This document shows, piece by piece, positions 6,471-19,989 of a stretch of 20,000 bases of DNA. The number at the start of each line of letters is the position of its first letter. The stretch's first letter is position 1. The stretch lies in IMG/VR virus record IMGVR_UViG_3300010233_000006. The stretch is one strand, 5' to 3'. Position numbers and translations under genes: made by a program. The notes beneath the pieces are model-generated. The model worked only from the letters and a program-made list of their open reading frames with translations. It searched no databases and was not told the DNA's origin. Origin of the DNA: an uncultured virus (IMG/VR IMGVR_UViG_3300010233_000006). Taxonomy: Duplodnaviria; Heunggongvirae; Uroviricota; Caudoviricetes.

Positions 6471-6893
6471 ATGGCCAACCGACGAGACTTCCTGAAAATG
6501 TTCGGCGTAGGGGCGACCATCGTTCCCGTCATCGGAGGACTGCCCAGTATGGCGGTCTCGGCAAATCTGATCGAAGTCCCAAAGGTGGAGCCCGTGCGCC
6601 TAGCGTCACCAGCGGAAATCCATGATCTGAATGCTCCGCCCGCTCCTGGAGATATCGCCCGGATGTACCTCGACGTATCCACTAGGGACGGTAAACGCTT
6701 CCGGTTTACTGCCGAGGTCATGACTGTCGATTTAATGGGGCCGCAGAGGTACCGTCCAGACCTCAGAAGTTTTAATGATCCCTACGGCATGATTCCATGT
6801 CCTGTACCAAGCATGGAATGGGATCTCAAGCTCCACGTCCTATCCGGGCCGCACATGACCGTGTACGCTAATCCGGCATCCCCACAATATTGA
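6471..6893 (+). CDS. Antisense moron-like protein with a twin-arginine (Tat)-like signal peptide (140 aa)
   Basis: MANRRDFLKMFGVGATIVPVIGGLPSMAVSA matches (S/T/N)RRxFLK plus an h-region; fills the gap between two minus-strand genes; TATCCT lies 6 nt before the ATG. Confidence 0.72.
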   Translation: MANRRDFLKMFGVGATIVPVIGGLPSMAVSANLIEVPKVEPVRLASPAEIHDLNAPPAPGDIARMYLDVSTRDGKRFRFTAEVMTVDLMGPQRYRPDLRSFNDPYGMIPCPVPSMEWDLKLHVLSGPHMTVYANPASPQY

Positions 6894-7773
6894 CCCGGTA
6901 CCCTGCCAGCAGATCATCCATGGTGTTCTGCACTTCCACCGAGATCAAGCCTCTCCCCGTGGCAATCGGGATTCGATTCTGGAAGTAGTGGGTGGCCAGG
7001 TAGAGAATCGCCATCTGAATACCGCTGGGGACGGCGCTTCCCCGGAAGACCACCGGGGTTGAAAACGGCAATGTCGCTTGCCCATTTGCGGAAACAACCA
7101 ATTGAAGCTGATCCGCGCTTGGGGGCGAACCAACTCCGGGAGTGTAGCTGGCTACGTCGAAGGATTGCCGATTGAACGTCATCCAGGTACCCACTAGGCG
7201 CGGGTCAAAGGTCCCCGATACCAAAGTGGCGACTCCATTCGCATCCACCGTGGCGGTCCCTGTGAATGACTGGTAGCCGCACACATAAGTGATCTGGATC
7301 GGACTCGCCGGCAGCAGGATGGTCGTCGGCCAGATGCCGGCAAAAGGAAGCCGTAACTCTCCCGGCTCTGGCTCCGTGTCCAGCAAATAGTTGCCACCTG
7401 ACGGCGTGTTACTGTATCCCTGCTGCATGGTGTGCAGGGCTCCGGTTGTATCGAAATAATTGAACGACACAATCGATTGCAGTGGCGGCTTGGGCAGCGG
7501 GATCTTGGAGAACTTATAGTATTCCCGCAGCCCGAAGTTCTGCTGGTAACCGATCAAGTAGCTCCTGCCCGGAAAATGCTGGAGCGCCAGGCGCCAGGTC
7601 TGCGGCAGAAACGCCCGCTTCGTGATTTTCTCGCAATCCCGCGTGGCCGCCGCGATGTAGCCGGCGATCAGGGAATCCTCTGTCCCTGCGAAGAACCGGG
7701 AGTGTGCCTTGACATCTGCCACGGAGATCGGATCGAAGGCGGGTGGGACAACGAGAGTGAGGCCGGAGAACAT
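6868..7773 (-). CDS. Head-tail connector/adaptor (HK97 gp6 / phiE125 gp8-like) with an extra inserted domain
   Basis: PPAFDPISVADVKAHSR...EDSLIAGYIAAATRDCE..TKRAFLPQTWRL, LPKPPLQSI, ITYVCGY, VPSGIQMAILYLATHYFQNR. Confidence 0.92.
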   Translation of the reverse strand: MFSGLTLVVPPAFDPISVADVKAHSRFFAGTEDSLIAGYIAAATRDCEKITKRAFLPQTWRLALQHFPGRSYLIGYQQNFGLREYYKFSKIPLPKPPLQSIVSFNYFDTTGALHTMQQGYSNTPSGGNYLLDTEPEPGELRLPFAGIWPTTILLPASPIQITYVCGYQSFTGTATVDANGVATLVSGTFDPRLVGTWMTFNRQSFDVASYTPGVGSPPSADQLQLVVSANGQATLPFSTPVVFRGSAVPSGIQMAILYLATHYFQNRIPIATGRGLISVEVQNTMDDLLAGYRVNIVGMPD

Positions 7774-8105: not shown

Positions 8106-8630
8106 TTATGCCAGCCCGCTGATGATCCGATAGCCCACCCGTACGATCAGGCTTCCATTCCCCGCCGTATATTCGGTGGCACTGGGATTCTGGAGCACGA
8201 CGGCCGTATTGAGGACCGTGCTCGTCACCCAGCCGGGACTGGCTGCGGGGAAGATTGGCGCGTCCCCCTGCAGTGCATTTGCCGCCGCGATTAATGCTGC
8301 GGAAGCCAGCCCGCTTCCGACCGCTTGGCCCCCGGCTCCCCAGTAGAGTCCCAGAATCCCGATGGAACTGGTGAACTGCGGACTCGTATATTGAAAATCC
8401 CACAGGATGCTGGTGACATCAATAAATGTGCCAGCTCCGGCGGCCGGGATGATCGTGACCGGGGTTCCATGTAAGGCTTTGATCTGCGCAGCGGTGATCG
8501 TCTTCGTAACCGCTTGCGGTAGGCCAAATCCCTCTCCGATGGCAAACTCGACGTTCCCGGCGGCCTTTCCGACGTACTGCATGCTGCCGTCTGATCCGAC
8601 GCGCGTAGTGACGGTGAAAATATCGCTCAT
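8106..8630 (-). CDS. Putative head-associated structural protein
   Basis: AAGGAG RBS; TITAAQIKALHGTPVTIIPAAGAG...GNGSLIVRVGY beta-rich pattern; located between capsid and connector genes. Confidence 0.7.
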   Translation of the reverse strand: MSDIFTVTTRVGSDGSMQYVGKAAGNVEFAIGEGFGLPQAVTKTITAAQIKALHGTPVTIIPAAGAGTFIDVTSILWDFQYTSPQFTSSIGILGLYWGAGGQAVGSGLASAALIAAANALQGDAPIFPAASPGWVTSTVLNTAVVLQNPSATEYTAGNGSLIVRVGYRIISGLA

Positions 8631-8695: not shown

Positions 8696-9805
8696 CTACC
8701 GCGCCGCCAGGGCGACGAACGGAGAAGTGGGCGTGCTGCCATTGGCCGGGGTTACGGCAGCATTATCAAGCGGACCTCCTGTTGCCCGGAGAATAAATCT
8801 GAAAATTTGCTGGCCCGATTCGAACAAAACGTGGACCGACACTTCACCTCGCAGCCGTTCCCGCATGGCTACCACATAGCGGCTGAAGTCTGCCAGGACG
8901 ACATCGCCCGGAGTTCCGGCCGCCTGACAATACTCCGATGGAAATGCCGGAAGTCCGCAGAGCCAATCGTGGCCCGCATCGTCCGAGAAGTTGTACTGCC
9001 AGGAATTCGATTGGCTACCGGCTGTTCCCACGATCGTAGTCAAGCCGGTCAATTGCGGGAGAAGGTCCGTGTTGTACAACCAGATCGCGTTCTTGCGGGA
9101 GGGTGCCCACAGGCTGGACCGCATCTTGGTGACATTCTGATTGATGACTGTTCCCGATCCCTGCCCTGCCTCTTTGGCCACCGTCACGGTTGCTGGTGCG
9201 TTGACCACTCCTAGCGGTTGCCCGGCACCGGTGCCGTTCACGATGAGATCCTCCAGCCGAAAGGTCAACTCCATGGAGAATGCATAGGTGGCCCAGGAAG
9301 TCAAGGCATCGGAGTCCATGGCCAGTTCATCTGTGAGTTTCAGAAGCCCGATGATCTTCTTAGGCGTGAGTGACGTTAACTGGAAATCCGGGAGAGTGGA
9401 AGGTGGCGTAACGGCTTCGGGCTCCACAAAGACCTGAATGCCGCCCAGACGGCTACCAGGTGCACGCGAGGTTTCATTGAACTGCGGACATTTGATGCTC
9501 TGCCGCTGCACCGGCATCTCGAAACAGCGTCCCAGGATGTCGCCGACGAGGTACGAGCGCCGGACAATCTCGCGAGAAAATTCAGGAGCCACCAGGAATC
9601 CGCCGCCCGATGGCAAGCCTTCCGAAGCACCGGCCGCTGTCGGACCCGCGGCGCGTTTCTGGACTTCGAGTAGGCGTGGATCGGGCGTGCTACCCGGATT
9701 CATGCCGAACTTCGCCACGGCATGCAACTGCTCTCCAAACGAACGGAACGGGCAGTCCTCGACGGCACGGATTGGCTCGAGCCGGGGAATTGATTTGGGC
9801 ATCAT
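8696..9805 (-). CDS. Second HK97-fold major capsid protein paralog lacking most of the N-terminal delta/scaffold domain (369 aa)
   Basis: GASEGLPSGGGFLVAPEFS, KKIIGL..LTDEL..DS, IVNGTGAGQPLGVVN, GDVVLADFSRY, SPFVALAAR, colinear with the upstream MCP; AGGAG 10 nt before ATG 9805. Confidence 0.93.
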   Translation of the reverse strand: MMPKSIPRLEPIRAVEDCPFRSFGEQLHAVAKFGMNPGSTPDPRLLEVQKRAAGPTAAGASEGLPSGGGFLVAPEFSREIVRRSYLVGDILGRCFEMPVQRQSIKCPQFNETSRAPGSRLGGIQVFVEPEAVTPPSTLPDFQLTSLTPKKIIGLLKLTDELAMDSDALTSWATYAFSMELTFRLEDLIVNGTGAGQPLGVVNAPATVTVAKEAGQGSGTVINQNVTKMRSSLWAPSRKNAIWLYNTDLLPQLTGLTTIVGTAGSQSNSWQYNFSDDAGHDWLCGLPAFPSEYCQAAGTPGDVVLADFSRYVVAMRERLRGEVSVHVLFESGQQIFRFILRATGGPLDNAAVTPANGSTPTSPFVALAAR

Positions 9806-9843
9806 GATGTGAGATCTCCTGATCAACAAGTGAAGAGAGGGAA

Positions 9844-9904
9844 GGGGCGGCCCGGAGGAAGGACGCCCCGCGTGAAAAGCGCACCTTTGGTAGGCTCAGT
9901 GCGC
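9844..9904 (-). terminator. Two hairpins, possible partial terminator/attenuator upstream of the second capsid gene
   Basis: Minus strand GCGCAC..GTGCGC followed by TTTT, then GGGGCG..CGCCCC followed by a pyrimidine tract. Confidence 0.45.
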
Positions 9905-9920
9905 CGGCTTCCCTATTTGG

Positions 9921-10451
9921 TTAGACAGTGGCGCTCGGGCTGCCCTTGTAGCCGTAGCGGGCTCCAGAGAGGATCCCGATTACGGAGCCGATATTCGCGT
10001 TCACACCATCGGCGATCACCACATAGACGTAGGGATACTCTGTGATGGTGCCGACGACCCCCGCTTGCACTTCCAATTCCGCGGCATCGATTTCGATGAC
10101 CCATACGAGATTGGAACAGGCAGCGGGCAAGGGCGCGGATGCCGGCAGGGAGCTCGTGATTCCGGTCGTATCCGCATAGAATGGACCGGTCAGCGTGTCG
10201 TTACCGGCCCCGCCCGTGGCCTGCAGATAGAAGCGGAAGCCCATGGCCTTGCTTGCCCCGATTGCCTCGGTGGTCGCCTGGCGGACGATGAACGAGGTCG
10301 GCTGGGCCGCCACCGATCCATAGCTGATGATGATGGACAGATGTTCGTAATTCGCCATATTGACGGGCAAGGTGGTCTTGCCCGAAGAGGTTGAGACTGC
10401 CGGAAGCATGTTCACGACGTGTCCCGCTTCCGCAATATTATATCCGTTCAT
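9921..10451 (-). CDS. Putative capsid decoration/cement protein
   Basis: AAGGAG RBS; closely follows the MCP; VNMANYEHLSIIISYG...VIEIDAAEL...YPYV...ILSGARY beta-sandwich-like pattern. Confidence 0.7.
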   Translation of the reverse strand: MNGYNIAEAGHVVNMLPAVSTSSGKTTLPVNMANYEHLSIIISYGSVAAQPTSFIVRQATTEAIGASKAMGFRFYLQATGGAGNDTLTGPFYADTTGITSSLPASAPLPAACSNLVWVIEIDAAELEVQAGVVGTITEYPYVYVVIADGVNANIGSVIGILSGARYGYKGSPSATV

Positions 10452-10492
10452 TGGTTGTTACTCCTTTTTGGGGTTTGTCTGTTGCGGGGAGG

Positions 10493-10636
10493 TCATGCCC
10501 CGGTTCGGAAAGATTGTTTATTTGTGCGGGCCGCCAATCGAGATGGTTCCACTTGCTCATTTACTCCGCGAACCGATGATGGCGGGATACGCTTCTCGGC
10601 CCCGCAGAAGGCGCAGTGAATAATGGCTGAATGCAT
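10493..10636 (-). CDS. Small CxxC ORF (47 aa), possibly a truncated remnant
   Basis: Strong GAGGAGG RBS, then MHSAIIHCAFCGAEKRIPPSSVRG... Confidence 0.4.
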   Translation of the reverse strand: MHSAIIHCAFCGAEKRIPPSSVRGVNEQVEPSRLAARTNKQSFRTGA

Positions 10637-10645
10637 TGTGCCCCC

Positions 10646-10691
10646 TCCTCTAGTAGGGGTGCTGGCGGCAGCGTAGAGGACCGCCGCCAGC
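10646..10691 (-). promoter_or_regulatory. 11-bp hairpin whose loop can pair with the downstream RBS (H-type pseudoknot)
   Basis: GCTGGCGGCGG-TCCTCTACG-CTGCCGCCAGC-ACCCCTAC-TAGAGGA; loop TCCTCTA is complementary to TAGAGGA. Confidence 0.6.
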
Positions 10692-10737
10692 GCATCGGGG
10701 TAATTACTCCCAATGCTCAATGCCTATTGTAACTCCG

Positions 10738-12129
10738 TTACCGAGTGTCCAGGCAGACGAATGGACTCTGGGTATTCGAACCCTGCGCCGGCGTCAGCGT
10801 GGTTTTCCACCACGGTTGCGAATCGGTGCGGTAGATCCACCGATAGACCATTTCCGACGTCAGAAATCTGACGTGCATGGAAGTCGCGGTCTGAAGATCT
10901 CCCTTGTCTATCATCAGTTGTTGGCTGAAGTCGCACAGCATCACATCGCCGACAGTCCCGAGGGTTGAGGCTTGCTCGATGTTGATTACCGGGCGCCCGA
11001 AGAGTGTGGCATAGGGCGTGCCGGCCGCGCCCGTGGGCGGAAGATACACCGGCAATCCGCCGACGCCGACGACCTGACCCATCCCGTAGAGCTGCTGCTC
11101 GACATCCTGATTGATGAACCAGACCGCGTTCAACCGGGACTTGCTCCACATCCGGCCCCATGCCTTCTTGATGTTCTCCCATACGACGGTCTGCGCAGCT
11201 TGGCCGGTTTCCTTCGTGATCTTAATCAGGCAGTTTGAATTCAGGATGCCAAGCGGTTGGCCCGCACCGGTTCCCCGGATCATCGCGTCGTCCAGTTTGA
11301 ATCCGAATTCCTGCGCGAAGGCGGTCATCACGTAATTGCCCAGGAAGTTTTGATCGGCGAGTAGTTCATCGGTCGCGTAGAACAGGCCCGTCAGTTTTTT
11401 GAGGACCATCTCCAATATCGCGAAGGTGGGCTTACTGCCGACGAGCGATTGGGCTTCCTGCTCCCACATCATCTGAATGCCACCATTGCGGAAACCGTCT
11501 TTGCGCGACTGCTCGTCTACGGCCGGAATCTTCATTGCGTTCGTGAATTCGGCCAGTGGCAGTTTTCGTACGCGCGGGTAGATGAGCCCGGTGTCGTGCG
11601 CCAATTGGAGCAATTCCTGCGCAAATGAGGGAAACACGAGGAATCCGCCGTCTGATGGCACGGCTTCGGAGGCGCCAGCCGCCGCCGCGCGCTTCTCGAA
11701 TCCCTCGTTGAGCGCATACAGTCGGGGATCTCCCTTCTGTCCGGTGATCTGTCGCCGCTCCGCGTTTCGCACTTCGGCGAGAAATTCACCGAATCCACGG
11801 GAGATGCGCCGCAACCGTTGGTCCTTCGATTCGGCTGTCGGCTCGTCCGCTATCCACGGCTTGTCCAGCACATTGTCGTAGACCCGCGCCGGCTCGCTCC
11901 TTGGTCCCGTGCTCCGGTCGCTCGGGATGTTGGTCAGGGTGGCCATCCGTTCGGTTGCGTCGATGGTTGCCTGAATGTTGGCTGCTTCGGCGGTGAAGCC
12001 TTCGAACTTGGTGCGCTCTTCCGCCGTCATGGCTGCCCGCTTTTCGGTTTCCATTGTGGCCAGAATGCCTTGGGCCGAATCCAGCGCGGCAGCCTTACTC
12101 TGTCGTAAATCGAGCAAACGATTGCTCAT
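10738..12129 (-). CDS. Major capsid protein, HK97 family, with N-terminal coiled-coil delta domain (463 aa)
   Basis: Start reassigned to ATG 12129 (MSNRLLDLRQ) with AAGGAG; helical N-terminus, then GASEAVPSDGGFLVFP, KKLTGL.YATDELLAD, GTGAGQPLGILN, TLFGRPV, SPFVCLDTR. Confidence 0.96.
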   Translation of the reverse strand: MSNRLLDLRQSKAAALDSAQGILATMETEKRAAMTAEERTKFEGFTAEAANIQATIDATERMATLTNIPSDRSTGPRSEPARVYDNVLDKPWIADEPTAESKDQRLRRISRGFGEFLAEVRNAERRQITGQKGDPRLYALNEGFEKRAAAAGASEAVPSDGGFLVFPSFAQELLQLAHDTGLIYPRVRKLPLAEFTNAMKIPAVDEQSRKDGFRNGGIQMMWEQEAQSLVGSKPTFAILEMVLKKLTGLFYATDELLADQNFLGNYVMTAFAQEFGFKLDDAMIRGTGAGQPLGILNSNCLIKITKETGQAAQTVVWENIKKAWGRMWSKSRLNAVWFINQDVEQQLYGMGQVVGVGGLPVYLPPTGAAGTPYATLFGRPVINIEQASTLGTVGDVMLCDFSQQLMIDKGDLQTATSMHVRFLTSEMVYRWIYRTDSQPWWKTTLTPAQGSNTQSPFVCLDTR

Positions 12130-12338
12130 AGGTCTGTGCTCCTTGTGTAAGTAATTTGCCGCGGAGTTACCGCAGGCTGAAAGATAGCGTGCTGCTGAGA
12201 AGGTACTGCTCGGTGGCGCTGGCTGCACGCTGGAGCCTGCGTCAAAAATCTTGAAATGCTTCTTGAAGATCGGAAAACTGGAAGTGCTGAGTCCTCTAAG
12301 ATGGGCGAACGAACACGGGCTGCTGTTCTGCTGAAGGT

Positions 12339-14525
12339 CTAGCGGAGCCTCAGTATTGCCAAGCGGCCGGCATCGAAATCCATGGAATTCGAGAGTGCTG
12401 CCTGTTCAGACTGTACTGAGGCCTCGGTGTCCGCATAAGCCGGAAACGATACAATGCTCGCATCCCGGAGTAGTGCTCGCTCCACAACCCGAATGCGTTC
12501 TCCGTCTCTTGTTTCAAACCGAAACTTAAGTATCCAAAAGGAAGCTGATGAAGCAGACACGTCATTCCTGCGCAGTAGACAGAGAACATCGTCCGCATAG
12601 GACGTTTCCGGGAGATCGGCCTCGGCATGTACGCCATCTACGGCATCCCAAAAGCGCGCAGTTCCAGAAGATTGTCGGCCGAGGACGTATTTATCGTCAT
12701 GGCCCCACAGCACCCTCGGATCTTGATTCAAACCCTGCGAGAAGGCACCACGCTCATATCGCTCCTTGAATCCTCCAAGATCAATGGACGTGGAATCTCC
12801 ATACGGTGCCACAAACAATGATACTTTCCTACCATTTTCGGGAGCTGTTGCCGATCTGCCCGCAAATCGCCGCACCGCCAGGATCACACCCGGTTGCCCA
12901 AATAGGCCCTCACTGGAAGCCTTAGGATATTCATAATCGGCCCATCCACAGCCGCTTTTGTTGAATGCGTATTGGATCAGCGTTGGCATATGCTGGGATG
13001 CATCTGCGTGGAACACGTCGGCGCGGAGTGCGTCGGCCAGTCGGTCGGCAATGCTGGCCGCGTCAACAAATGCCAGCGCCAGTTCCGCTTCGCTCTTCAA
13101 GTCTGGAGCTTCGAGCCCGGCATCCTTTAGGTGCTTCGCCAGGTGCGCGTGAACTCCCTTACGGTCGGCTGCGGGAATCGTAGTTCCTCCACGACCGCCG
13201 TTAAGATTTCCAATTCCGGCTTGGCATGCTTTGATATTGGCAGCCCCGATACTTCCGCTTTCGGAGACTTCGTGATGGGGGAATTTAAATTGCACCTTTT
13301 TCGTGCCATCGCTTCCATTCTCCTGCCAGGCATAGGCCCTGCGGTAGTAGGCGGCATTCTGATCGGACTTCAAGCGCGCTTCGTTCGCTGGTCCGTCCCA
13401 GGACTTGTCGGAGGTCGCGGTCTTGTGGGGGGGGATGGCGCCGGCCTGGATGTTCGAAAGATCGTGAACGGAGTTCACAATCTGAGTGTGCTGAACGCCT
13501 TCCGCATCGGTATAACTGACGCTCAGGATAGTGCCCGTTCCAAGAGCAGCAGACATCATCTCATCGTCAGGAGGGTCCTGATCGTTCGATTCGAGAGCGG
13601 CCGTAGCGATCTGGCCCCGCAAGTATCCCAGGGCATCATCCACGGTCCCTACCGCATCGCAGAGCAGGGGCATACCCGTTTCTGCCGGGTAGCAGCCGGC
13701 CTCGGTGGCATAGAGGTCGTCGGCTGAGACGCCGCGGCTCTTGGCTACGGCGTTCACGAAGATGGCTTGAATCCGGTCGCACTGATCCTGCATGTCCGCT
13801 TCGGCACCACTGGACAGGGGTTCAAAGGGATTCCCATCCACTTTTTTCTTGCCGGCGAAGATCAGGGTGACTTTGACCCCGGCCTCTTTATACATCTCGC
13901 TGAGGTCAACATGGGCACTCCAGCAGCCGATCGAACCCGTGCCCCCCACGCTGGTTACGAACAATTTTGGGGCGGTCGAGGCGAGGCAGTAGGCCGCCGA
14001 GTAGCACTGATCCTTCGATATTGCGGCGGTGGGCTTGGTGGCTGCGAGGGATCGGAGGAGATCAGTGGTTTCAATCCAGTCCGAGCACGCTTCTCCGCCA
14101 GGGGAATCGTAGCAGAACAGTACACCTTTGATGGAGCTATCCGCATATGCATCCTCGGCTAGTTCGGCCAATTTCGAATACGTCATGAACCAGTAGGACT
14201 TCGGCACCAGGGGACCCCGCACCGAAATGCACGCGATTCCGTCCTCGGTTACCGGATATGGTTTCTCGTCGGGCTGGTCATCGTCCTCGTCATCATCATT
14301 CCAGGTCACCACGGGAGAGGCGATAGCACGATCCACCAGACTCTTGTAGGTCTTCAACTCCATCGCCCATGGGAGCGTGAGGATGCGCTCCGATTCCAGG
14401 AAATGTGGCCGGCGGACCTTCGGAGCTACGAGAACCAGAGATCCATCGGTCGAGCTAGCGGCCAGTGTGGGATCCAGAATGGGCGTCGGCGGCTTGGCTG
14501 CTGTCTTGGTGAATTGCAAAGCCAT
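12339..14525 (-). CDS. Prohead maturation protease fusion: S49 (SppA/lambda gpC-like) + uncharacterised middle domain + S78 (HK97-type)
   Basis: S49 motifs YDSPGGE, CYSAAYCLAS, GTGSIG, AGKKKVDGNPF; S78 motifs GGFKERYERGAF, VLWGHD..VLGR, DVSASSASF, LRDASIVSFPAY. Confidence 0.9.
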   Translation of the reverse strand: MALQFTKTAAKPPTPILDPTLAASSTDGSLVLVAPKVRRPHFLESERILTLPWAMELKTYKSLVDRAIASPVVTWNDDDEDDDQPDEKPYPVTEDGIACISVRGPLVPKSYWFMTYSKLAELAEDAYADSSIKGVLFCYDSPGGEACSDWIETTDLLRSLAATKPTAAISKDQCYSAAYCLASTAPKLFVTSVGGTGSIGCWSAHVDLSEMYKEAGVKVTLIFAGKKKVDGNPFEPLSSGAEADMQDQCDRIQAIFVNAVAKSRGVSADDLYATEAGCYPAETGMPLLCDAVGTVDDALGYLRGQIATAALESNDQDPPDDEMMSAALGTGTILSVSYTDAEGVQHTQIVNSVHDLSNIQAGAIPPHKTATSDKSWDGPANEARLKSDQNAAYYRRAYAWQENGSDGTKKVQFKFPHHEVSESGSIGAANIKACQAGIGNLNGGRGGTTIPAADRKGVHAHLAKHLKDAGLEAPDLKSEAELALAFVDAASIADRLADALRADVFHADASQHMPTLIQYAFNKSGCGWADYEYPKASSEGLFGQPGVILAVRRFAGRSATAPENGRKVSLFVAPYGDSTSIDLGGFKERYERGAFSQGLNQDPRVLWGHDDKYVLGRQSSGTARFWDAVDGVHAEADLPETSYADDVLCLLRRNDVSASSASFWILKFRFETRDGERIRVVERALLRDASIVSFPAYADTEASVQSEQAALSNSMDFDAGRLAILRLR

Positions 14526-14535
14526 GGCGATCTCC

Positions 14536-15015
14536 TTAGAGTTTCTCGGCGATGTATTCGGCCTCGTCCATTGCCTCGATCAAGCTCAACTGCTGGGCCA
14601 GCCATCCGACATGGCTTTGATGCCACTTTAGCAAGTGCTCGATCAGGTTTCTGGTCGTATCGTCCAGCGCCTTCATGGCCGTCTGAATTGTCTGCTCATA
14701 GGGAGCGACAATCGCCAGTTCCAGGCTGAGTTCGTTTTCGAACATGGCCGTCAACGTTTCCGACTCCATGATTCCAGACACCGGGTAGTTGAGCTTACCA
14801 CCGAGGAAGAGCAGCCGATCGGAAACTTTCTTGGCCCAGCAGTGAGCGTCGTCCCCGAAGGAATGCAGCTTCTTGGCGGTCTTCTTCACGCCGAGAAACT
14901 TTGCCAGCCGCCAATCCGCTCGATATTGCGCATTGAGGTGGACCTCTGCCGAGACTGCCAATTGCAGCGCCACCAGGACATCGGGATTGCCGGTGATCGG
15001 TGTACGGTTCGTCAT
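14536..15015 (-). CDS. bfr: Bacterioferritin-like protein with a non-canonical ferroxidase centre
   Basis: Aligns by eye end to end with E. coli Bfr (G...V...L......E.....QY; RLLFLGG; MFENELSLE; D..TR..HVGWL..QL.LI..M...EY); AAGGAG RBS. Confidence 0.88.
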   Translation of the reverse strand: MTNRTPITGNPDVLVALQLAVSAEVHLNAQYRADWRLAKFLGVKKTAKKLHSFGDDAHCWAKKVSDRLLFLGGKLNYPVSGIMESETLTAMFENELSLELAIVAPYEQTIQTAMKALDDTTRNLIEHLLKWHQSHVGWLAQQLSLIEAMDEAEYIAEKL

Positions 15016-15045
15016 ACTGAAAATCTCCTTCGGCAGTTCAGTTTT

Positions 15046-16329
15046 CTAATGCGCAAGGCCGTTCGGCTTCGACTTCGGCGCTGGGGTCGGCACGATTTTC
15101 ATATCTCGCGGAGCGGTTTCGGGGTTTCCCCCTTCTGGCATCATGTTCACCGGGGTCCAGTACGCCTTGCCTATCCCATCAGGCTGGGCATTCATGTCAA
15201 GCAGGCCCTCTCTGATTTCATCTGCGTTCATGATTCCCCATTGGCGCAGGATAGCGATCCACTTTCCCATGGCCTCATGGTTGCCACGCAGCAGATTCAG
15301 ATAGTTAAATCTGGTGAAGATCGTCCGGAATTCCCGCGCGGACAGGAGCGAGGCATGCGTCTCCGATTCCCAGTTAGTGGTCCAGCGATTGAGAGAATAC
15401 AGAACGTATTCCAGGCTCAGCTCTTCGATGTTGTTGTTGGTGGCCCGGTCGAGCAGCCCGACGCGATGCTGGGGAACTCCATAGATCCGGCAGATGGCTT
15501 GTGCGGTGAGACCGGCAGTCTTGATGAATTCCGCGTCCACCATGTTGGATGCGGTTTCCTTATAGGTGACCCCCTCCTCCAGGATTGCGATGCGATACGC
15601 ATTGTCAAGTCCCTGGTGGCTCTCTGCCCAGTCCTTCTTGAGCCGTAAGAAGGCAGCGTCATCGATTTTCTGCGGATGCGTTAGCATGCCCCGAGGCTCA
15701 GCCGAGTTGCCGAAATATCTGGCACCATGCTCCGTGATAGCCATGTCGAGGCCGATTCGCTGCCGGTGGACTTCGATGGGAGAAAGCCCCGTTACGCCAT
15801 CGACCGACAATCCGCGCAAATGGAAAATCCGGTCGCCCGGCAAGGTGAACGGCTTCCCGTCCTGCATCTTGTACGTATACTGGAGCGGACCACCTTTATA
15901 TTGCCGGGTGATCTTCACCCGATCCGGGCGCCAGGGCCACAAAGCGGTAACCTGGCCGCGCCCATTGATCTCGATCTCGGCATAGGCATTGCCGTTCAAG
16001 CCCACCCATGTCTGCATCAGGTGGGTATACCGCCAGGCCGTCATTTCGGGATTCGCCTGGTCCTGCAACAAGCCCCAAAGATAGTGCTCGGTGGCGCGTT
16101 CTCGCCCTTCTTCCGTGCGCCGATATGTCATCTGGGGCATCGTGGCGATATCACTCGCCAGGGCGTCGACACAGGCCCAGACGGTATCCACTGCTAGGGC
16201 ACCGGTTTCCGAGACGAGCTTGCCGGTATAGGATGGTTGGCCCCCGAACTGTTGGTCAAGCAGTCGATCGAAATCCGACAGCGACATGCCAGCCCCAACC
16301 TGCTGTGCGGCCCTCCTTACAAGATTCAC
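15046..16329 (-). CDS. Portal protein, HK97 family
   Basis: TVWACVDALASDIATMP, ANPEMTA, LNGNAYAEI, IFHLRG.SVDGVTGLSPI, ICRIYGVP.H.VG, NNIEE, GIMNADEIR; GTG start with GAGG. Confidence 0.97.
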   Translation of the reverse strand: MNLVRRAAQQVGAGMSLSDFDRLLDQQFGGQPSYTGKLVSETGALAVDTVWACVDALASDIATMPQMTYRRTEEGRERATEHYLWGLLQDQANPEMTAWRYTHLMQTWVGLNGNAYAEIEINGRGQVTALWPWRPDRVKITRQYKGGPLQYTYKMQDGKPFTLPGDRIFHLRGLSVDGVTGLSPIEVHRQRIGLDMAITEHGARYFGNSAEPRGMLTHPQKIDDAAFLRLKKDWAESHQGLDNAYRIAILEEGVTYKETASNMVDAEFIKTAGLTAQAICRIYGVPQHRVGLLDRATNNNIEELSLEYVLYSLNRWTTNWESETHASLLSAREFRTIFTRFNYLNLLRGNHEAMGKWIAILRQWGIMNADEIREGLLDMNAQPDGIGKAYWTPVNMMPEGGNPETAPRDMKIVPTPAPKSKPNGLAH

Positions 16330-16460: not shown

Positions 16461-16495
16461 GCGAATTTGGATTCGGAGTTTAGTTATGTCAAACT
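16461..16495. promoter_or_regulatory. Possible overlapping divergent sigma70-type promoters
   Basis: Plus strand TTGGAT(16467)-17 nt-CAAACT with an extended TG, pointing at the RNA at 16505; minus strand TTGACA(16492-16487)-17 nt-CAAATT. Both -10 boxes are weak. Confidence 0.3.
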
Positions 16496-16504
16496 TGTTG
16501 TTCT

Positions 16505-16635
16505 GGCCGGGTAATGCCTGAGATGGCCTCGGGCGGGCAGGACGCAGAATAACTCCAGCGGCGAGAGCGTCACGCCACAGCCCCTACTGTCTCGCTGGGA
16601 TGGTGGGGCGGCGGTTCGAATCCGCACACCCGGCC
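16505..16635 (+). ncRNA. tRNA-like expanded cloverleaf RNA (~130 nt), antisense to the late operon
   Basis: Closing stem GGCCGGGT/ACCCGGCC; hairpin GCCTGAG/CTCGGGC; GACGC/GCGTC arm; long GCCCC..GGGGC arm; T-arm GCGG-TTCGAAT-CCGC; G-U wobbles favour the plus strand. Confidence 0.6.
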
Positions 16636-16657
16636 CTCGAAGGAGTCTAGCGATTAA

Positions 16658-16969
16658 ATGTTCCCTACTATCCTCTATGACTACGTGGTCCCTGGCGAGG
16701 TGGAAATGGCGACGTTCTATCCACCGGAAACGGCAAATGCATGGAACGGTGAATGGCATCGTCTGGATGGTGGCCATTTCATCCGATACCTTCCTACCTT
16801 TTGGGGTGGTGGCTGCTTCCAGCATGCGAGACCGAACAATCGGGATCGAGGCTTGGCGACATCCTATCCCGGTCTTTGTCTTCGCTGTTCTTCCGCCACC
16901 CGATCAGCGGATATCAGAAACGAAATCCAGACTCCTGAGATTCCACCGACAATCGGTCCCAACGGATGA
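16658..16969 (+). CDS. Hypothetical protein downstream of the tRNA-like RNA
   Basis: AAGGAG about 12 nt upstream; occupies otherwise empty sequence, but its 3' third overlaps a minus-strand gene. Confidence 0.4.
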   Translation: MFPTILYDYVVPGEVEMATFYPPETANAWNGEWHRLDGGHFIRYLPTFWGGGCFQHARPNNRDRGLATSYPGLCLRCSSATRSADIRNEIQTPEIPPTIGPNG

Positions 16970-17127
16970 TACACCATCCATGCCCCGTACGAAATCGAAG
17001 CCATGCCACCGAAGAAGAAGACCTGCTCCAGGACGGCCGGCACGATGGCCGTCACCTTCTGGCGCGCCTTTGTGGCAGCGCGCTGGAAGGCACTGAAGCC
17101 GCGGTGGACGGGAATGATGGAGGTCAT
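16864..17127 (-). CDS. Small membrane protein (two hydrophobic segments), of the kind often found between terL and portal
   Basis: VFFFGGMASISYGAWMVYHPLGPIVGGISGVWISFLI; ATGA overlap with the upstream ORF. Confidence 0.75.
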   Translation of the reverse strand: MTSIIPVHRGFSAFQRAATKARQKVTAIVPAVLEQVFFFGGMASISYGAWMVYHPLGPIVGGISGVWISFLISADRVAEEQRRQRPG

Positions 17128-17462
17128 CGCTTTGCCGACCAGGATGTGAATACGCTAAGGTCATCGCCGCTTCCGGCGACAGGAGGTTGCGGGCTTTCTT
17201 TGCTTTTCAAGTGAGCTGCCACACGATCCGCGAGGACTTCGATTAGCCCTGCGGAGGGTTGCAGGTCATCCAGCCACATTCCCTTATCGAAGATCAAGAA
17301 CTTGATTCCGTGCTCTTTTTCGAACGGGGCAAGCTGCTCTTTCAGCCGTAGGAAATCGGCTTCGCTCAGGTTAGTATCCACCTCCAAGGCATACGTTTTG
17401 CCTCGCTCCAAACCGCGAGCGGCCACCGCGCCAATCACAAGTTCAGGTGCTTCCATCGTCAT
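17124..17462 (-). CDS. Hypothetical protein with a segment resembling the portal clip region
   Basis: Tightly packed in the operon; YALEVDTNLSEADFLRLKEQL...KFLIFDKGM. Confidence 0.7.
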   Translation of the reverse strand: MTMEAPELVIGAVAARGLERGKTYALEVDTNLSEADFLRLKEQLAPFEKEHGIKFLIFDKGMWLDDLQPSAGLIEVLADRVAAHLKSKESPQPPVAGSGDDLSVFTSWSAKR

Positions 17463-17466
17463 GCCT

Positions 17467-18235: not shown

Positions 18236-19989
18236 CTACAGGAACCGAATCCCCCGTGTCGAGTAGACCGATTGGAATGGCTCGGGCATCGTCAGGGCTC
18301 GATTGAGTGCCATGATAAGAGCCACAGCCCCATCGATCTTATTCTCTTCCCGCTCTTTCCGCGGGTAGATGTTGTCTTTGAGGTCCCGCCAGCAGACCAC
18401 ATTGGAAATCTCCCATCCCAGGATCGGATCGCCATTGTGGTGGAAGCGGCCCTCGAGAACGACGGCCTCCAGTTCCTTCATGGGCGCCGAGAAATTCTGG
18501 ACGTTGGCATCCAGCGCGACTAGGAGAACGTTTTGATTCCAATCCGGCCGCGCCCGCATGACTTGGAGCAGCGGTTCCGACTGGTAGGGATCGTGCGGGA
18601 TCTCCCGTACCACAAAACGCTTCACGTCCTCGATCAGGCCATCTGCGATCCAGTTCAGGTCTGTGACATTCCCCGGGGTGACGGTCAGCAATTCATCATT
18701 CTGCCAACCCTGGTAGTGGATACCCTTGGACACGGCCGCTTCGTTCAGATAGTGCTCGGCGAAGGCGTAGTAGTGAACCTTGGGCTTCCCGTCCCCATCT
18801 GGAATCACCTTGCGAAACAGCCGTACTTTCGCTGCGATATCCACCCGGCTGGCCAGATCCACCCCGATCCAGCATTCCTGACGCTCGAACTCTTCGATCT
18901 TGAGATTGGGGTCGCCGCATCGGTCCCAGGCCACCATGTTCATCCAGGCAACCGCTGCGTTTACCCAGACGTTCAGGTGCTTCGTCTTGAAGACGTTTTG
19001 CTTGCGGGCGCTGTTGATCGCGTCCCGCTGCGCATCCAGCAGAAAGTCCGGTGAGACTGAGACCCCATAGTTCGGGTTGGCCTTGATCAGCGCCGCTTCC
19101 GAGGTCCACAGGTCAGTTTCATCAACCGTGTAGATCAGAACGAATAGCCGGTCGTTCTGAATCTTGCCTTCGAGCACCTTCTGGCAATCGATCTGGAGTG
19201 CGTAGCAGGGCCCTGATCGATCGCTGCCGGCAGTAGTGATGACCAGTAGGAGCGGCGATTGGCGCGCCCCCATCCCGGTTTTCATCGTGTCGTAGAACGT
19301 GTCGTCCGTGTGTTCGTGGTACTCGTCTACGATTGCGCAGGAGGGTGAGGCACCATCACCAGGCTTACCAATAAGCGGCTCGAAGCGGCTCCCATTCGCT
19401 GCGATCACCAGGGACTTAGCGTTGATCTTGACCCCGAAGGCCTCCCGAAAGTCGAAAGTGCGTTCGGCCATCTGCTTGGCCGGCCGAAATACCTCCCATG
19501 CCTGCTTCTCCGTGGTGGCCCCGCTATAGACTTCTGCACCGAACTCTCCGTCGGCCGCAAACTTGTAGTTTCCGCTCGCGGCAGCCCAGGTGGATTTGNN
19601 NNNNNNNNNNNNNNNNNNNNNNNNNNNNNNNNNNNNNNNNNNNNNNNNNNNNNNNNNNNNNNNNNNNNNTCGCTCCGACTGGCCCAGACGCCCTTCGTGT
19701 GGGGCATGCTCTCGATGAAACGGCAGGCCCGGTGCGCCTTCGCCGGATTGTAGCGGTATTGCCAGTCGTCGCGTTCCAGGTCCCGGAAGTGGCGTTCGCA
19801 GGCCAACTTCACCCATTTGCACGCGGGGATCAAGTCGTCCAGTACATCACGCGCGTACTGGTTGGCCTTCTCGGAATAGCCCGGCGGGCTCGGCGGCTTA
19901 GTTCGGCTTGTTCGGGTTGAAGAGGTCGGTGATGCTTTGGCCTTCGTCGAGGTTCGCGAACGGGTTCTTCTTGTCGGGTTCTGGGACAA
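18236..19989 (-). CDS. terL: Terminase large subunit (interrupted by an assembly gap)
   Basis: N-terminal ANQYARDVL...ACKWVKLACERH...FIESMPHTKG, gap, then KSTWAA (end of Walker A), EVYSGATT..QA, AIVDEYHEH (Walker B), LLVITTAG, IGVDLASRVD, HNGDPIL.W, KIDGAVALIMA. TTG start at 19989 is tentative. Confidence 0.95.
19599..19669. other. Assembly gap (71 N)
   Basis: Run of N; explains the apparent frame change within terL. Confidence 0.99.

What the first reader, a model, noticed from the sequence alone, without database searches (positions are those of the whole stretch)
8696..15015. Head cassette combining a ferritin-like gene, a double protease and two HK97-fold shell genes: possible phage analogue of an encapsulin/ferritin system
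Seen: the operon runs portal - bacterioferritin homolog - S49+S78 protease - MCP1 - decoration-like - MCP2, with short spacing around bfr (30 bp after portal, 10 bp before protease) and good RBSs. Known: portal-protease-capsid is normally contiguous; family 1 encapsulins are HK97-fold shells that assemble without scaffold and often load ferritin-like cargo from a neighbouring gene. Inference: the Bfr-like protein is a late product linked to head assembly. It could be internal cargo or a core, or cargo for a separate shell formed by the scaffold-less MCP2. No encapsulin targeting peptide is evident, so this is a hypothesis.
Basis: partly seen in the sequence, partly recalled or inferred. Interest (0 to 1): 0.85.

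Follow-up and report, generated by a model that had tools for sequence, protein, structure and literature searches.

The report
Remodelled bacterioferritin inside a phage head operon
An uncultured soil-type phage carries, between its portal and head-protease genes, a bacterioferritin-fold protein that has lost its iron-oxidising site and belongs to a phage-borne family almost always found in that slot, but it is not tied to the phage's second capsid gene, so the proposed ferritin-in-a-shell (encapsulin-like) pairing is not supported.

Summary
The gene order is real: TerL, portal, Bfr-like, S49+S78 fused protease, MCP1, p176, MCP2, all on the minus strand with tight spacing and good ribosome sites. 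The Bfr-like protein has the full bacterioferritin fold, but only 3 of 6 ferroxidase ligands, no haem methionine, and about a third of the usual negative charge. It belongs to a distinct family, about 30% identical to host Bfr. In 37 of 42 assessable related loci it lies directly after a portal gene, whether HK97-type or lambda-type, and ahead of the protease or protease-capsid gene. It is about twice as conserved as portal or TerL. This supports a head-linked late role.

The encapsulin reading fails its own refutation test. Close relatives show Bfr without MCP2 (L062), MCP2 without Bfr (L126), and neither. There is no targeting peptide. MCP2 is an ordinary HK97-type phage capsid protein from a clade of short forms without a delta domain. 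It is probably a specialised capsomer, as in T4 and phage Jabs.

New: in most HK97-type relatives, though not in this window, the protease next to Bfr carries a nine-cysteine metal-type motif (18 of 43 loci against 1 of 79 controls).

The parts
18236..19822 (-). Large terminase (TerL)
   Evidence: PF20441 E 6e-37 and PF03354 E 1.6e-14; phrog_9 E 1.8e-132
15046..16329 (-). Portal protein, HK97/SPP1-type (PF04860)
   Evidence: PF04860 E 5e-90; phrog_12 E 3.7e-98
14536..15015 (-). Bfr-like protein, 159 aa. It has the bacterioferritin fold with a remodelled metal site: E24, Y31, E99 and H135 are kept, and E51->A57, M52->H58, H54->W60 and E127->H132 are changed
   Evidence: PF00210 E 3.6e-12. TIGR00754 scores 58.5 bits, below the cut-off of 125.55. 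PDB alignment. AF2 pLDDT 93. Foldseek TM 0.92 to Bfr 7y6f. Family signature
12339..14525 (-). Fused prohead protease, 728 aa: S49 domain, 'mid' segment, S78 domain
   Evidence: PF01343 and PF04586. phrog_53 E 3.1e-62 and phrog_80 E 1.4e-24. The same three-part protein occurs in L126. Conserved Ser/Lys-type and His/Ser-type motif columns are kept in both domains
13509..14297 (-). S49 (ClpP/SppA-like) protease domain, residues 77-339
   Evidence: phrog_53 covers residues 77-339. The SPGG and Ser columns are invariant in the alignment
12861..13493 (-). 'mid' segment, residues 345-555. It has no Pfam family and is common on prohead proteases
   Evidence: No Pfam hit at E<=1. Homologous segments occur in 15 of 43 Bfr loci and 22 of 79 control loci, so it is not linked to Bfr
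12393..12845 (-). S78 (HK97 gp4-type) protease domain, residues 561-711
   Evidence: PF04586 E 2.4e-23. TIGR01543 scores 66 bits, above the cut-off of 59. The His and Ser columns are invariant
10738..12129 (-). MCP1, an HK97-type major capsid protein with an N-terminal delta (scaffolding) region. The likely start is the ATG at 12129; the ORF is open from 12228
   Evidence: PF05065 E 1.9e-37. TIGR01554 E 1.4e-52. RBS. Orthologues are 56% identical in L126 and 51% in L062
9921..10451 (-). p176, a small head-module protein that follows MCP1-type capsid genes. It may be a decoration or cement protein, but this is unverified
   Evidence: No family hit. Homologues follow the MCP in L016, L062 and L126 by tblastn. 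An aligned 162-aa ORF holds the same place in L017. Atlas gives a lead only
8696..9805 (-). MCP2, an HK97-type capsid protein without a delta domain. The likely start is the ATG at 9805; the ORF is open from 9829
   Evidence: PF05065 E 1.4e-29. It is 38% identical to MCP1. RBS. It belongs to a clade of short MCPs. An orthologue 54% identical sits in the same position in L126. AF2 pLDDT 81, with top fold matches to GTA, cf-PICI and phage capsids
8106..8630 (-). p174, a small protein after MCP2. It shares a segment with the C-terminal half of a cement-protein homologue
   Evidence: No family hit. tblastn gives 30% identity, E 7e-10, to the ORF carrying PF09956 in L036 and L037. It is not similar to p176
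6868..7773 (-). Head-tail adaptor, marking the end of the head cassette
   Evidence: phrog_442 E 9.6e-18 and phrog_40 E 2.7e-10

Best explanation
This is the head-morphogenesis operon of a tailed phage whose relatives lie in Acidobacteriota genomes. Two unusual features are combined in it, and they are independent of each other.

(1) The Bfr-like gene belongs to a phage-borne offshoot of bacterioferritin. The offshoot keeps the whole five-helix Bfr fold. It has replaced three of the six di-iron ligands and the haem methionine, and it has lost about two thirds of the negative charge that true Bfr carries. It is therefore very unlikely to be an iron-storing ferroxidase. It is made late, usually translationally coupled to the portal gene. 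I infer that it acts as a structural or assembly partner in the procapsid: a Bfr-like dimer or cage recruited with the protease/scaffold and portal, and possibly retained as an internal head protein. In most HK97-type relatives the neighbouring protease carries a nine-cysteine metal-type motif that may be its docking or metal partner. This window's protease has lost that motif or never had it.

(2) MCP2 is a second capsid protein without a delta domain, from a separate clade of short MCPs. It is kept together with MCP1 in a relative that lacks Bfr. I infer that it co-assembles with MCP1 as a specialised capsomer (most likely pentons), as in T4 and mycobacteriophage Jabs, and is not a separate shell for Bfr.

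Shown: gene identities, fold, ligand changes, synteny, and independent gain and loss. Inferred: physical presence in the head, any binding partner, and the penton role.
For: Fold and site. The AF2 model has pLDDT 93 with five helices. Foldseek gives TM 0.92 and rmsd 1.2 A to Bfr 7y6f. In the ligand mapping, E18, E94 and H130 are kept, and E51->A, M52->H, H54->W and E127->H are changed. The same signature ([ASCG] at 57, [WFY] at 60, H at 132) recurs in 40 cluster representatives, against 56 with the canonical EMH...EH signature. Median net charge is -3.9 against -11.0.

Distinct family. 60 homologues are 46-66% identical. 21 clusters score E<=1e-30 among 1.84 billion representatives. TIGR00754 is below its cut-off. 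There is no PHROG. Acidobacteriota host Bfrs are 28-31% identical and canonical.

Synteny. Of the 43 Bfr-bearing loci, 42 can be assessed. A portal gene lies directly upstream in 37: 25 of PF04860 type and 12 of lambda PF05136 type. The junctions often overlap by 4 bases. Where the contig continues, the downstream gene is nearly always an S78, ClpP, S49, S78+ClpP or protease-MCP fusion gene; L024, L039 and L040 are exceptions.

Conservation. Bfr is 60% identical on average in pairs where the portal is 26% and TerL 29% identical. The window's branch is not accelerated (0.32 against a median of 0.38).

Cys motif. It occurs in 18 of 43 Bfr loci against 1 of 79 control loci (Fisher p 6e-9, loci not independent) and on four protease architectures.

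Independence from MCP2. L126, L062 and L016/L017.

MCP2 kept as a second capsid gene. The window and L126 share the MCP1-p176-MCP2 order at 54-56% identity. There is precedent for hexon and penton paralogues in Jabs and T4 (passages of bioRxiv 10.64898/2026.07.24.740622).
Against: No fused form with a head protein was found (weak evidence). No shared C-terminal motif was seen on the upstream portals. The Cys motif is missing from this window's protease and from the lambda-type, L024, L039 and L040 modules, so it cannot be the universal partner. One subfamily (L125) has lost every metal ligand. A protein that is twice as conserved as portal and TerL, and that sits beside non-homologous portals and proteases, is not what one expects of a partner that co-evolves with a specific head protein. 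A late but non-structural role fits this equally well. The Bfr tree shows at least one transfer between module types (L013 beside L019, support 100/99). For MCP2, nothing in the sequence shows a penton role, and short MCPs of its clade stand as the only visible capsid gene after a protease in L124 and L132.
Confidence: 0.5

Rival explanations
1. The Bfr-like protein is a late-expressed but non-structural accessory. In this reading it is a metal or redox handler, for instance a chaperone or donor for the cysteine-rich module of the protease, or a modifier of host iron stores by mixing with host Bfr subunits. It is never part of the particle.
For: It co-occurs strongly with a nine-cysteine motif on the next gene. 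A possible one-metal site (E24, E99, H132, H135) is retained in most members. Its very high conservation does not track the divergence of portal, protease or capsid, which suits a partner outside the phage or a chemical task. Natural Bfr heteropolymers with non-catalytic subunits are in the PDB hit list (9bts, 9iig, 9h1u).
Against: The metal ligands are not universal. H135 varies, and the L125 type has lost them all. The Cys motif is absent from this window and from about half of the lineages. The slot inside the portal-protease junction is kept across unrelated modules, which is unusual for a metabolic passenger. Identity to host Bfr is only about 30%, unlike a recent host-derived auxiliary gene.
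Confidence: 0.25
2. One reading: MCP2, which lacks a scaffold, forms its own HK97-fold shell, and the Bfr-like protein is its cargo. This would be a phage counterpart of an encapsulin/ferritin nanocompartment.
For: A short MCP without a delta domain lies directly beside a Bfr-like gene in two other lineages. L024 has protease, short MCP, Bfr, long MCP. L125 has portal, short MCP, Bfr-like. Two MCPs occur in the window and in L024 among the Bfr loci, against 0 of 80 control loci, although the control HMM sees only nearer MCPs. Bfr cargo in Family 1 encapsulins is described (PMC8346489, passages read). Short MCPs of the MCP2 clade can be the only visible capsid gene (L124, L132).
Against: No second MCP was seen in the other Bfr lineages whose contigs run on to the adaptor or beyond the capsid gene. 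L126 keeps MCP2 with no Bfr, and L062 keeps Bfr with no MCP2. There is no C-terminal extension or targeting peptide: the protein is 159 aa against about 158 for Bfr and ends at helix E. MCP2 does not match PF04454. Its best fold matches are GTA, cf-PICI and phage capsids, and encapsulins first appear at rank 26. The ferroxidase site and acidic surface needed for iron storage are gone. The genes sit in a full packaging operon with TerL and portal.
Confidence: 0.05
3. The Bfr-like gene is a mobile passenger (a moron) that spreads among soil phages and has no role in head assembly. It sits at the portal-protease junction only because insertions there are tolerated and well expressed.
For: It is optional among close relatives: absent from L126 and L107, and present in only 1 of 80 control loci chosen by capsid likeness. 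The tree shows transfer between module types (L013 with L019). Protease types are mixed within Bfr clades.
Against: The same slot is used beside non-homologous portals, so homologous recombination cannot explain the placement. There is no promoter or terminator of its own, and the stop and start codons often overlap. Module type clusters on the Bfr tree (6 changes against a shuffled mean of 13.8; 0 of 200 shuffles as low), which points to long co-residence. Purifying selection is strong.
Confidence: 0.12
4. On MCP2 alone: it does not co-assemble with MCP1. Instead it builds a second, smaller capsid type, or it is a capsid gene shared with satellite-like elements, so the phage makes two kinds of particle.
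For: The best fold matches include the small capsids of the Rhodobacter GTA (6tb9) and the capsid-forming PICI EcCI2 (9gyi). L124 carries an S49+S78 protease and an MCP2-like gene (57% identical) together with a replication initiator, a small terminase and an integrase. No TerL or portal is recognisable in the 10 kb upstream.
Against: Foldseek E-values for these and for ordinary phage capsids differ little. In the window and in L126, MCP2 is embedded in a single head operon with one portal and one terminase. L124 is a single case, and its 478-aa ORF is unidentified.
Confidence: 0.15

Closest known systems
Bacterioferritin (Bfr; TIGR00754, PF00210; e.g. Streptomyces coelicolor 7y6f, E. coli 1bcf)
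   Same: It has the same five-helix fold over its whole length (TM 0.92, rmsd 1.2 A) and the same length. E18, Y25, E94 and H130 equivalents are kept, as is the D-x-x-T/S-R and H-x-x-W-L-E helix D pattern.
   Different: E51, H54 and E127 are replaced, and the haem ligand Met52 is replaced. Net charge is about -4 rather than -11. Identity to Bfr is 24-31%, host Bfr included. It scores below the NCBIfam cut-off. It is encoded in a phage head operon, not in an iron regulon.
Encapsulin systems with ferritin-like or Bfr cargo (Family 1, PF04454; PMC8346489)
   Same: An HK97-fold shell gene and a ferritin-superfamily gene lie in one operon. The idea of a ferritin cage inside an HK97-fold shell exists for encapsulins.
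   Different: The shell genes here are PF05065 phage capsid proteins in a complete packaging operon. There is no targeting peptide. The ferritin-like gene and MCP2 do not co-occur across relatives. The ferroxidase site is lost.
Dual major capsid proteins of tailed phages (T4 gp23/gp24; mycobacteriophage Jabs MCPh/MCPp)
   Same: Two HK97-fold paralogues of unequal length lie in one head operon. In Jabs and T4 one builds hexons and the other pentons. Here the pair is conserved in L126.
   Different: No structure exists here, so which protein occupies which position is unknown. The MCP2 clade also occurs as the only visible capsid gene in other elements (L124, L132).
Portal-adjacent minor head proteins (SPP1 gp7 / Mu gpF family, PF04233)
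   Same: They occupy the same genomic slot between the portal and the scaffold or protease. In L013 the Bfr-like gene follows a Mu F-like gene directly. That gp7/gpF proteins are packaged with the portal is recalled knowledge, not tested here.
   Different: The fold is unrelated, and there is no evidence here for portal binding.
Bfr-Bfd pair (bacterioferritin with its cysteine-ligated [2Fe-2S] ferredoxin partner)
   Same: A Bfr-fold protein is encoded beside a small cysteine-rich metal-type module in most HK97-type relatives. Bfd biology is taken from a passage of PMC8346489 and from recall.
   Different: The module has 8-9 cysteines in about 30 residues, is part of a prohead protease, and is not similar to Bfd by any test run here. 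It is absent from this window.

Membership tests
Bacterioferritin (functional Bfr) | Four-helix bundle plus short fifth helix of the Bfr subunit | tested here: met
   AF2 pLDDT 93, helices 11-41, 44-70, 88-115, 119-149 and 151-158. Foldseek TM 0.92 to 7y6f.
Bacterioferritin (functional Bfr) | Six di-iron ferroxidase ligands (E18, E51, H54, E94, E127, H130; E. coli numbering recalled) | tested here: not met
   Only E24, E99 and H135 match. A57, W60 and H132 replace the other three. The same changes run through the family.
Bacterioferritin (functional Bfr) | Haem-ligating Met52 | tested here: not met
   H58 is at that column in the window, and the column varies across the wider family.
Bacterioferritin (functional Bfr) | Score above the curated equivalog cut-off (TIGR00754) | tested here: not met
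   58.5 bits against a cut-off of 125.55.
Bacterioferritin (functional Bfr) | 24-subunit cage with an acidic interior that mineralises iron | not testable with these tools
Family 1 encapsulin with ferritin-like cargo | Shell protein of the Linocin_M18 family (PF04454) | tested here: not met
   MCP1 and MCP2 match only PF05065 and TIGR01554. Encapsulins first appear at rank 26 in the fold search.
Family 1 encapsulin with ferritin-like cargo | Cargo carries a terminal targeting peptide | tested here: not met
   The protein ends with helix E, as Bfr does. No extension is seen in 21 aligned members.
Family 1 encapsulin with ferritin-like cargo | Shell and cargo genes co-occur as a unit across relatives | tested here: not met
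   L062 and L016/L017 have Bfr without MCP2. L126 has MCP2 without Bfr.
Family 3 encapsulin (PF05065 shell in a biosynthetic gene cluster) | Embedded in a natural-product gene cluster, without phage packaging genes | tested here: not met
   TerL, portal, protease, adaptor and head-closure genes flank it. The definition is from PMC8346489.
HK97-type phage head module | TerL, portal, prohead protease, and capsid protein with an N-terminal delta region, in one operon | tested here: met
   The first ~143 residues of MCP1 are absent from MCP2.
Dual-MCP capsid (hexon and penton paralogues) | Two intact HK97-fold paralogues in one head operon, conserved in relatives | tested here: met
   38% identity. 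The same MCP1-p176-MCP2 order occurs in L126 at 56% and 54% identity. Both have good ribosome sites.
Dual-MCP capsid (hexon and penton paralogues) | One paralogue occupies the pentons and the other the hexons | not testable with these tools
   This needs a particle structure or stoichiometry.

The most novel reading that the evidence does not exclude
Phage heads of this lineage package a bacterioferritin-derived cage or dimer as a true internal component. It would be loaded together with the protease, whose cysteine-rich metal module serves as the docking or metal partner in most relatives. The Bfr-in-an-HK97-shell arrangement would then have a viral form, one that could be the evolutionary source of, or a parallel to, encapsulin-ferritin compartments. 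In this reading the dual capsid genes are a separate innovation.
Probability: 0.2. Interest if true: 0.85.

Novelty: new variant of a known kind. Interest (0 to 1): 0.62.

Why it matters
Head operons of tailed phages are among the best understood gene sets in biology. A conserved extra component derived from an iron-storage protein has not been described in the papers I could search (searches found none). If the protein is part of the procapsid, it would be a new class of internal head protein, and its link to a cysteine-rich metal module on the maturation protease would point to metal chemistry inside capsids. It would also give a concrete, testable bridge between phage capsids and encapsulin-ferritin compartments. 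The two conserved capsid paralogues add a further candidate to the very short list of tailed phages with separate hexon and penton proteins.

Tried and rejected
I had asked for two Bfr-like subunits of L008, the C-terminal 84 residues of its protease, and Zn.
- The look-up of sequencing runs listed no run for 8696-16329, so there is no expression evidence either way.
- No whole genome is held for the window.
- Searches for close relatives in IMG/VR with MCP2 alone and with MCP1 alone found none.
- The wide Bfr alignment A2 was too diverse for a scan. I used the narrower alignments A3 and A4 instead.
- A search for longer, fused forms of the Bfr-like protein found none. This is weak evidence.
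- I saw no shared C-terminal motif among the upstream portals.
- The 'mid' segment of the protease is not enriched beside Bfr: 15 of 43 loci against 22 of 79 controls. I rejected it as a partner.
- p176 and p174 are not paralogues, so the cassette is not a simple tandem duplication of an MCP-plus-accessory pair.
- The hairpin between p176 and MCP2 is not significant (z -1.34).
- My first strict cysteine pattern matched nothing because its spacing was wrong. The looser pattern was used for the counts.
- A sample of 401 Acidobacteriota genomes gave only the starting genome as a strong phage-type Bfr match. Three of the four weaker matches gave a tblastn hit, and those three read as canonical host Bfr.
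- The same sample gave 1 of 401 genomes for the MCP2 profile at E<=1e-80, and that hit is a 458-aa form.
- The L023 row in the p176 alignment is a wrong frame and was disregarded.
- I considered a recent host-derived auxiliary metabolic gene and rejected it, because identity to host Bfr is only about 30%.

Full report
OBSERVATION.

The window carries one long minus-strand late operon. Pfam, PHROGs and NCBIfam identify its genes:
- TerL, 18236-19822.
- Portal of the PF04860 type, 15046-16329.
- A 159-aa ferritin-family protein, 14536-15015.
- A 728-aa protein with an S49 and an S78 protease domain, 12339-14525.
- A 496-aa HK97-type capsid protein, MCP1, 10738-12228.
- A 176-aa protein with no family, 9921-10451.
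- A 377-aa HK97-type capsid protein, MCP2, 8696-9829.
- A 174-aa protein, 8106-8630.
- A head-tail adaptor, 6868-7773.

There are 30 nt between portal and bfr, with AAGGAG 8 nt before the ATG. There are 10 nt between bfr and the protease, with GGAGA overlapping the bfr stop. No promoter-like or terminator-like site brackets bfr. MCP1 and MCP2 are 38% identical over 359 residues, and MCP2 lacks the first ~143 residues of MCP1.

Ribosome sites suggest that MCP1 really starts at 12129 and MCP2 at 9805. Both protease domains keep the motif columns that are invariant across relatives: SPGG and Ser in S49, His and Ser in S78. That these are the catalytic residues is recalled knowledge.

THE BFR-LIKE PROTEIN.

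By sequence it matches only bacterioferritins in the PDB (best hit 7y6f, E 3.3e-11). It scores 58.5 bits on TIGR00754, whose cut-off is 125.55. The AlphaFold model is confident (pLDDT 93) and has the five Bfr helices. It superposes on Bfr structures at TM 0.92 and rmsd 1.1-1.2 A.

In the residue-by-residue alignment, only three of the six di-iron ligands are kept (E. coli numbering, recalled): E24, E99 and H135. E51 is A57, H54 is W60, and E127 is H132. The haem ligand Met52 is H58.

This is not a quirk of one sequence. Among the best cluster representatives from a profile search of 1.84 billion proteins (21 at E<=1e-30, 407 at E<=1e-10, 1444 at E<=1e-3), I classified those of 140-175 aa. Forty carry the changed pattern (position 57 not Glu, His at 132), with mostly small residues at 57 and aromatic ones at 60. 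Fifty-six carry the canonical E-M-H...E-x-x-H pattern.

The changed group is far less acidic: median net charge -3.9 against -11.0, and pI 5.8 against 4.9. E24, E99, H127 and H132 are the columns kept in at least 90% of the wider family. One branch (L125) has lost even these.

The protein has no extension at either end compared with Bfr. It has the bacterioferritin fold but fails the tests for a working bacterioferritin.

WHERE THE FAMILY LIVES.

A word-indexed search found 60 homologues at 46-66% identity, all from metagenomes. No PHROG matches. Among 50,697 deposited phage records, only two Acinetobacter-labelled records match, at 24% identity.

Scans of IMG/VR, of species-representative genomes and of metagenome contigs gave 43 loci with a Bfr-like gene. 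I annotated them with tblastn and Pfam/PHROGs.

Of the 43 loci, one starts inside the gene. Of the other 42, a portal gene lies directly upstream in 37:
- 25 are of the PF04860 type.
- 12 are of the lambda PF05136 type, next to a GpA-type terminase.

In several loci the stop and start codons overlap by four bases. The five exceptions are:
- L013, where the gene follows a Mu F-like gene.
- L024 and L125, where it follows a short capsid gene.
- L039, where it lies between an 814-aa transglycosylase-like protein and a 1517-aa protein.
- L040, which has no recognisable families.

Many loci are near-copies of one another. I count about 13 lineages.

Where the contig continues, the downstream gene in nearly all loci is one of these; the exceptions are L024 (the long capsid gene), L039 and L040:
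- an S78 protease (L007, L011);
- a ClpP-type protease (L002/L008 group, L012, L015-17, L023);
- a 'mid'+S49 protease (L014, L018/19, L021, L030);
- an S78+ClpP fusion (L001, L022);
- a protease-capsid fusion (L025 and L031; the L034 and L038 type by its capsid domain and by likeness to L025);
- L013's protease-like protein.

The three loci in named genomes are all Acidobacteriota MAGs.

The Bfr-like protein is the most conserved gene of the module. Mean identity is 60% in the 172 pairs whose portals are on average 26% identical, and 61% in the 91 pairs whose TerL is 29% identical.

On a maximum-likelihood tree the canonical Bfr outgroup is separate (support 100/100). Module type clusters: 6 changes against a shuffled mean of 13.8, with 0 of 200 shuffles as low. 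Protease types are mixed within clades, and L013 sits beside L019 with support 100/99, so some transfer between modules has occurred.

Host Bfrs of Acidobacteriota that I read are canonical and 28-31% identical to the window protein. In a sample of 401 genomes of the phylum, only the starting genome had a strong phage-type match. This is an old, phage-resident family, not a recent host capture.

A METAL-TYPE MOTIF NEXT DOOR.

When I printed the protease termini, I saw a cysteine cluster of the form C-x-C-x-C-x2-C-x5-C-x2-C-x4-C-x-D-x-N-C(-x2-C). Eight of its cysteines are invariant among the ClpP-type proteases. It lies 22-36 residues before the C-terminal helix in the ClpP and S49 types, and between or after domains in the S78 types.

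A window count of at least 7 Cys in 40 residues finds it in the gene after Bfr in 21 of 43 loci. A pattern search finds it in 18 of 43 Bfr loci. Among the 80 loci fetched only for likeness to MCP2, it is found in 1 of the 79 that lack Bfr. The one control locus that has Bfr (L062) also has the motif (Fisher p 6e-9, with loci not independent).

The motif is absent from this window's protease, from L126 and L124, from L024, from the lambda-type fusions, and from L039 and L040.

As a negative control, the 'mid' segment of the window protease is not enriched beside Bfr: 15 of 43 against 22 of 79.

The motif links the Bfr-like gene to a probable metal-binding module on the protease in about half of the lineages, but it cannot be the universal partner.

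MCP2 AND THE ENCAPSULIN IDEA.

The 53 nearest clusters to MCP2 (46-82% identity) are 297-395 aa long. Below about 45% identity, most relatives are 413-476 aa, the size with a delta region. This short clade is not in IMG/VR above 45% identity.

The metagenome scan gave its contexts:
- L126 is the closest relative of the whole cassette. It has TerL, a portal (55% identical), a 725-aa S49+mid+S78 protease, MCP1 (56%), p176 (31%) and MCP2 (54%). It has no Bfr-like gene in any frame and no room for one between portal and protease.
- L062 has a portal (43%), Bfr (40%), a protease with the Cys motif and S78, MCP1 (51%), p176 (38%) and the adaptor. It has a single capsid gene.
- L016 and L017 have Bfr and one capsid gene.
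- L107 has neither Bfr nor, as far as the contig goes, a second capsid gene.

All combinations therefore occur among the nearest relatives.

The MCP2 model (pLDDT 81) matches the Rhodobacter GTA capsid, the capsid-forming PICI EcCI2 and phage capsids first (E about 1e-13 to 1e-12). Encapsulins appear from rank 26 (E about 1e-9 to 1e-10). MCP2 does not match PF04454.

According to the passages of PMC8346489 that I read, Family 1 encapsulins are PF04454 and their Bfr cargos carry C-terminal targeting peptides. Family 3 shells are PF05065 but lie in biosynthetic clusters. None of this fits here.

Some evidence remains in favour of a link. L024 has a 391-aa short and a 502-aa long capsid gene (27% identical) with the Bfr-like gene between them. 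L125 has portal, short MCP, then a Bfr-like gene. I give the encapsulin-like reading 5%.

WHAT MCP2 MOST LIKELY IS.

The MCP1-p176-MCP2 order is kept between the window and L126 at about 55% identity, so both paralogues are maintained. A preprint on mycobacteriophage Jabs (passages read) reports a T=9 capsid built from a long hexon protein and a short penton protein, and cites T4 as the other case. By analogy I take MCP2 to be a specialised capsomer that relies on the delta region of MCP1 or on the protease for assembly. This is inference.

The rival is that MCP2 forms a second kind of particle. Two observations fit it: the GTA and cf-PICI fold matches, and L124. In L124 an S49+S78 protease and an MCP2-like gene sit with a replication initiator, a small terminase and an integrase, and no recognisable TerL or portal lies in the 10 kb upstream.

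HOW THE BFR-LIKE PROTEIN MOST LIKELY WORKS.

Shown: it is a late gene that is part of the head operon. It has the Bfr fold without the Bfr chemistry. Its slot between portal and protease is selected across unrelated modules. It is under strong constraint.

Inferred: it is a structural or assembly partner in the procapsid, perhaps kept as an internal protein, with the cysteine module as a partner in many relatives. I give this about 50%. A late but non-structural metal or redox role gets about 25%. A passenger with no head role gets about 12%.

No fused forms were found, and no common portal tail motif was seen.

EARLIER NOTES OF THIS SCAN.

Three earlier AI notes describe the same kind of gene in other genomes: e1-6481022, e1-6075278 and e1-5886727. 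The last one also describes a cysteine module on the protease. I found them after my own analysis. They agree with it but are not independent evidence.

LITERATURE.

Full-text searches for bacterioferritin or ferritin-like proteins in phage head modules returned no description of this family. A search for a cysteine-rich prohead protease returned nothing. One paper reports two peptides of host Bfr in CsCl-purified Stenotrophomonas phage AXL1 (PMC9206674, passage read). One preprint lists a bacterioferritin among auxiliary genes of a Nitrosospira phage. Neither concerns this family.

VERDICT.

The head-linked late role of the Bfr-like gene is supported by synteny. The encapsulin/ferritin analogy with MCP2 is not supported. 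The finding is best filed as a new variant of a phage head operon, carrying a remodelled bacterioferritin and, separately, a conserved second capsid paralogue.

Noticed in passing
L008:6910-7758, L012:6248-7195, L016:8032-9423, L001:6566-8170, L007:1167-2405, L014:10491-12125 and others (not in the window): A nine-cysteine motif, C-x-C-x-C-x2-C-x5-C-x2-C-x4-C-x-D-x-N-C(-x2-C), sits on the prohead protease encoded right after the Bfr-like gene. It occurs on four different protease architectures. It is found in 18 of 43 Bfr loci against 1 of 79 control loci. It is absent from the window's own protease.
   Followed up: partly
L124:4128-13926: This is a satellite-like island at the end of a 110-kb metagenome contig. 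It has a replication initiator, a small terminase, an unidentified 478-aa ORF, an S49+S78 fused protease, a short MCP 57% identical to MCP2, two small ORFs and an integrase. No TerL or portal is recognisable in the 10 kb upstream.
   Followed up: partly
L125:1-2305: A relative has portal (51% identical), MCP2-like gene (53%), then a ferritin-fold gene that has lost all metal ligands (E24->L, E99->S, H132->L). There is no protease between the portal and the capsid gene. The contig ends inside the ferritin-like gene.
   Followed up: partly
window 814-1491; also L126:9568-9945, L127:1214-1831, L023:4599-5573: A family 2 glycosyltransferase gene recurs inside the structural module, near the adaptor or capsid genes, in the window and in relatives. 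It may glycosylate virion proteins.
   Followed up: no
window 2339-5041 and 5096-5917: A 900-aa protein has a glycine-rich domain and a C-terminal Gp77 fibre-tail adaptor domain. An HNH endonuclease with a zinc ribbon lies next to it. Both sit between the head-tail adaptor and the head-closure gene (1667-2050), which is an unusual place for them.
   Followed up: no
window 8106-8630: p174, the gene after MCP2, shares a segment (30% identity, E 7e-10) with the C-terminal half of the ORF that carries the Phage_cement_2 domain in L036 and L037. It may therefore be a capsid accessory. It is missing from L127, where a glycosyltransferase takes its place.
   Followed up: partly
L039:3555-11036: Here the Bfr-like gene lies between an 814-aa protein with a transglycosylase-like segment and a 1517-aa protein with a ddrB-ParB domain. 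Both look like large internal or ejected virion proteins.
   Followed up: no
window 12130-12338: There is a 209-nt non-coding gap between the protease stop and the likely MCP1 start, which is long for this otherwise tightly packed operon.
   Followed up: no
window 16484-17880: Three small ORFs (113, 112 and 137 aa) lie between TerL and the portal and have no family. The 137-aa one has a sub-threshold pilin match (E 0.0086).
   Followed up: no
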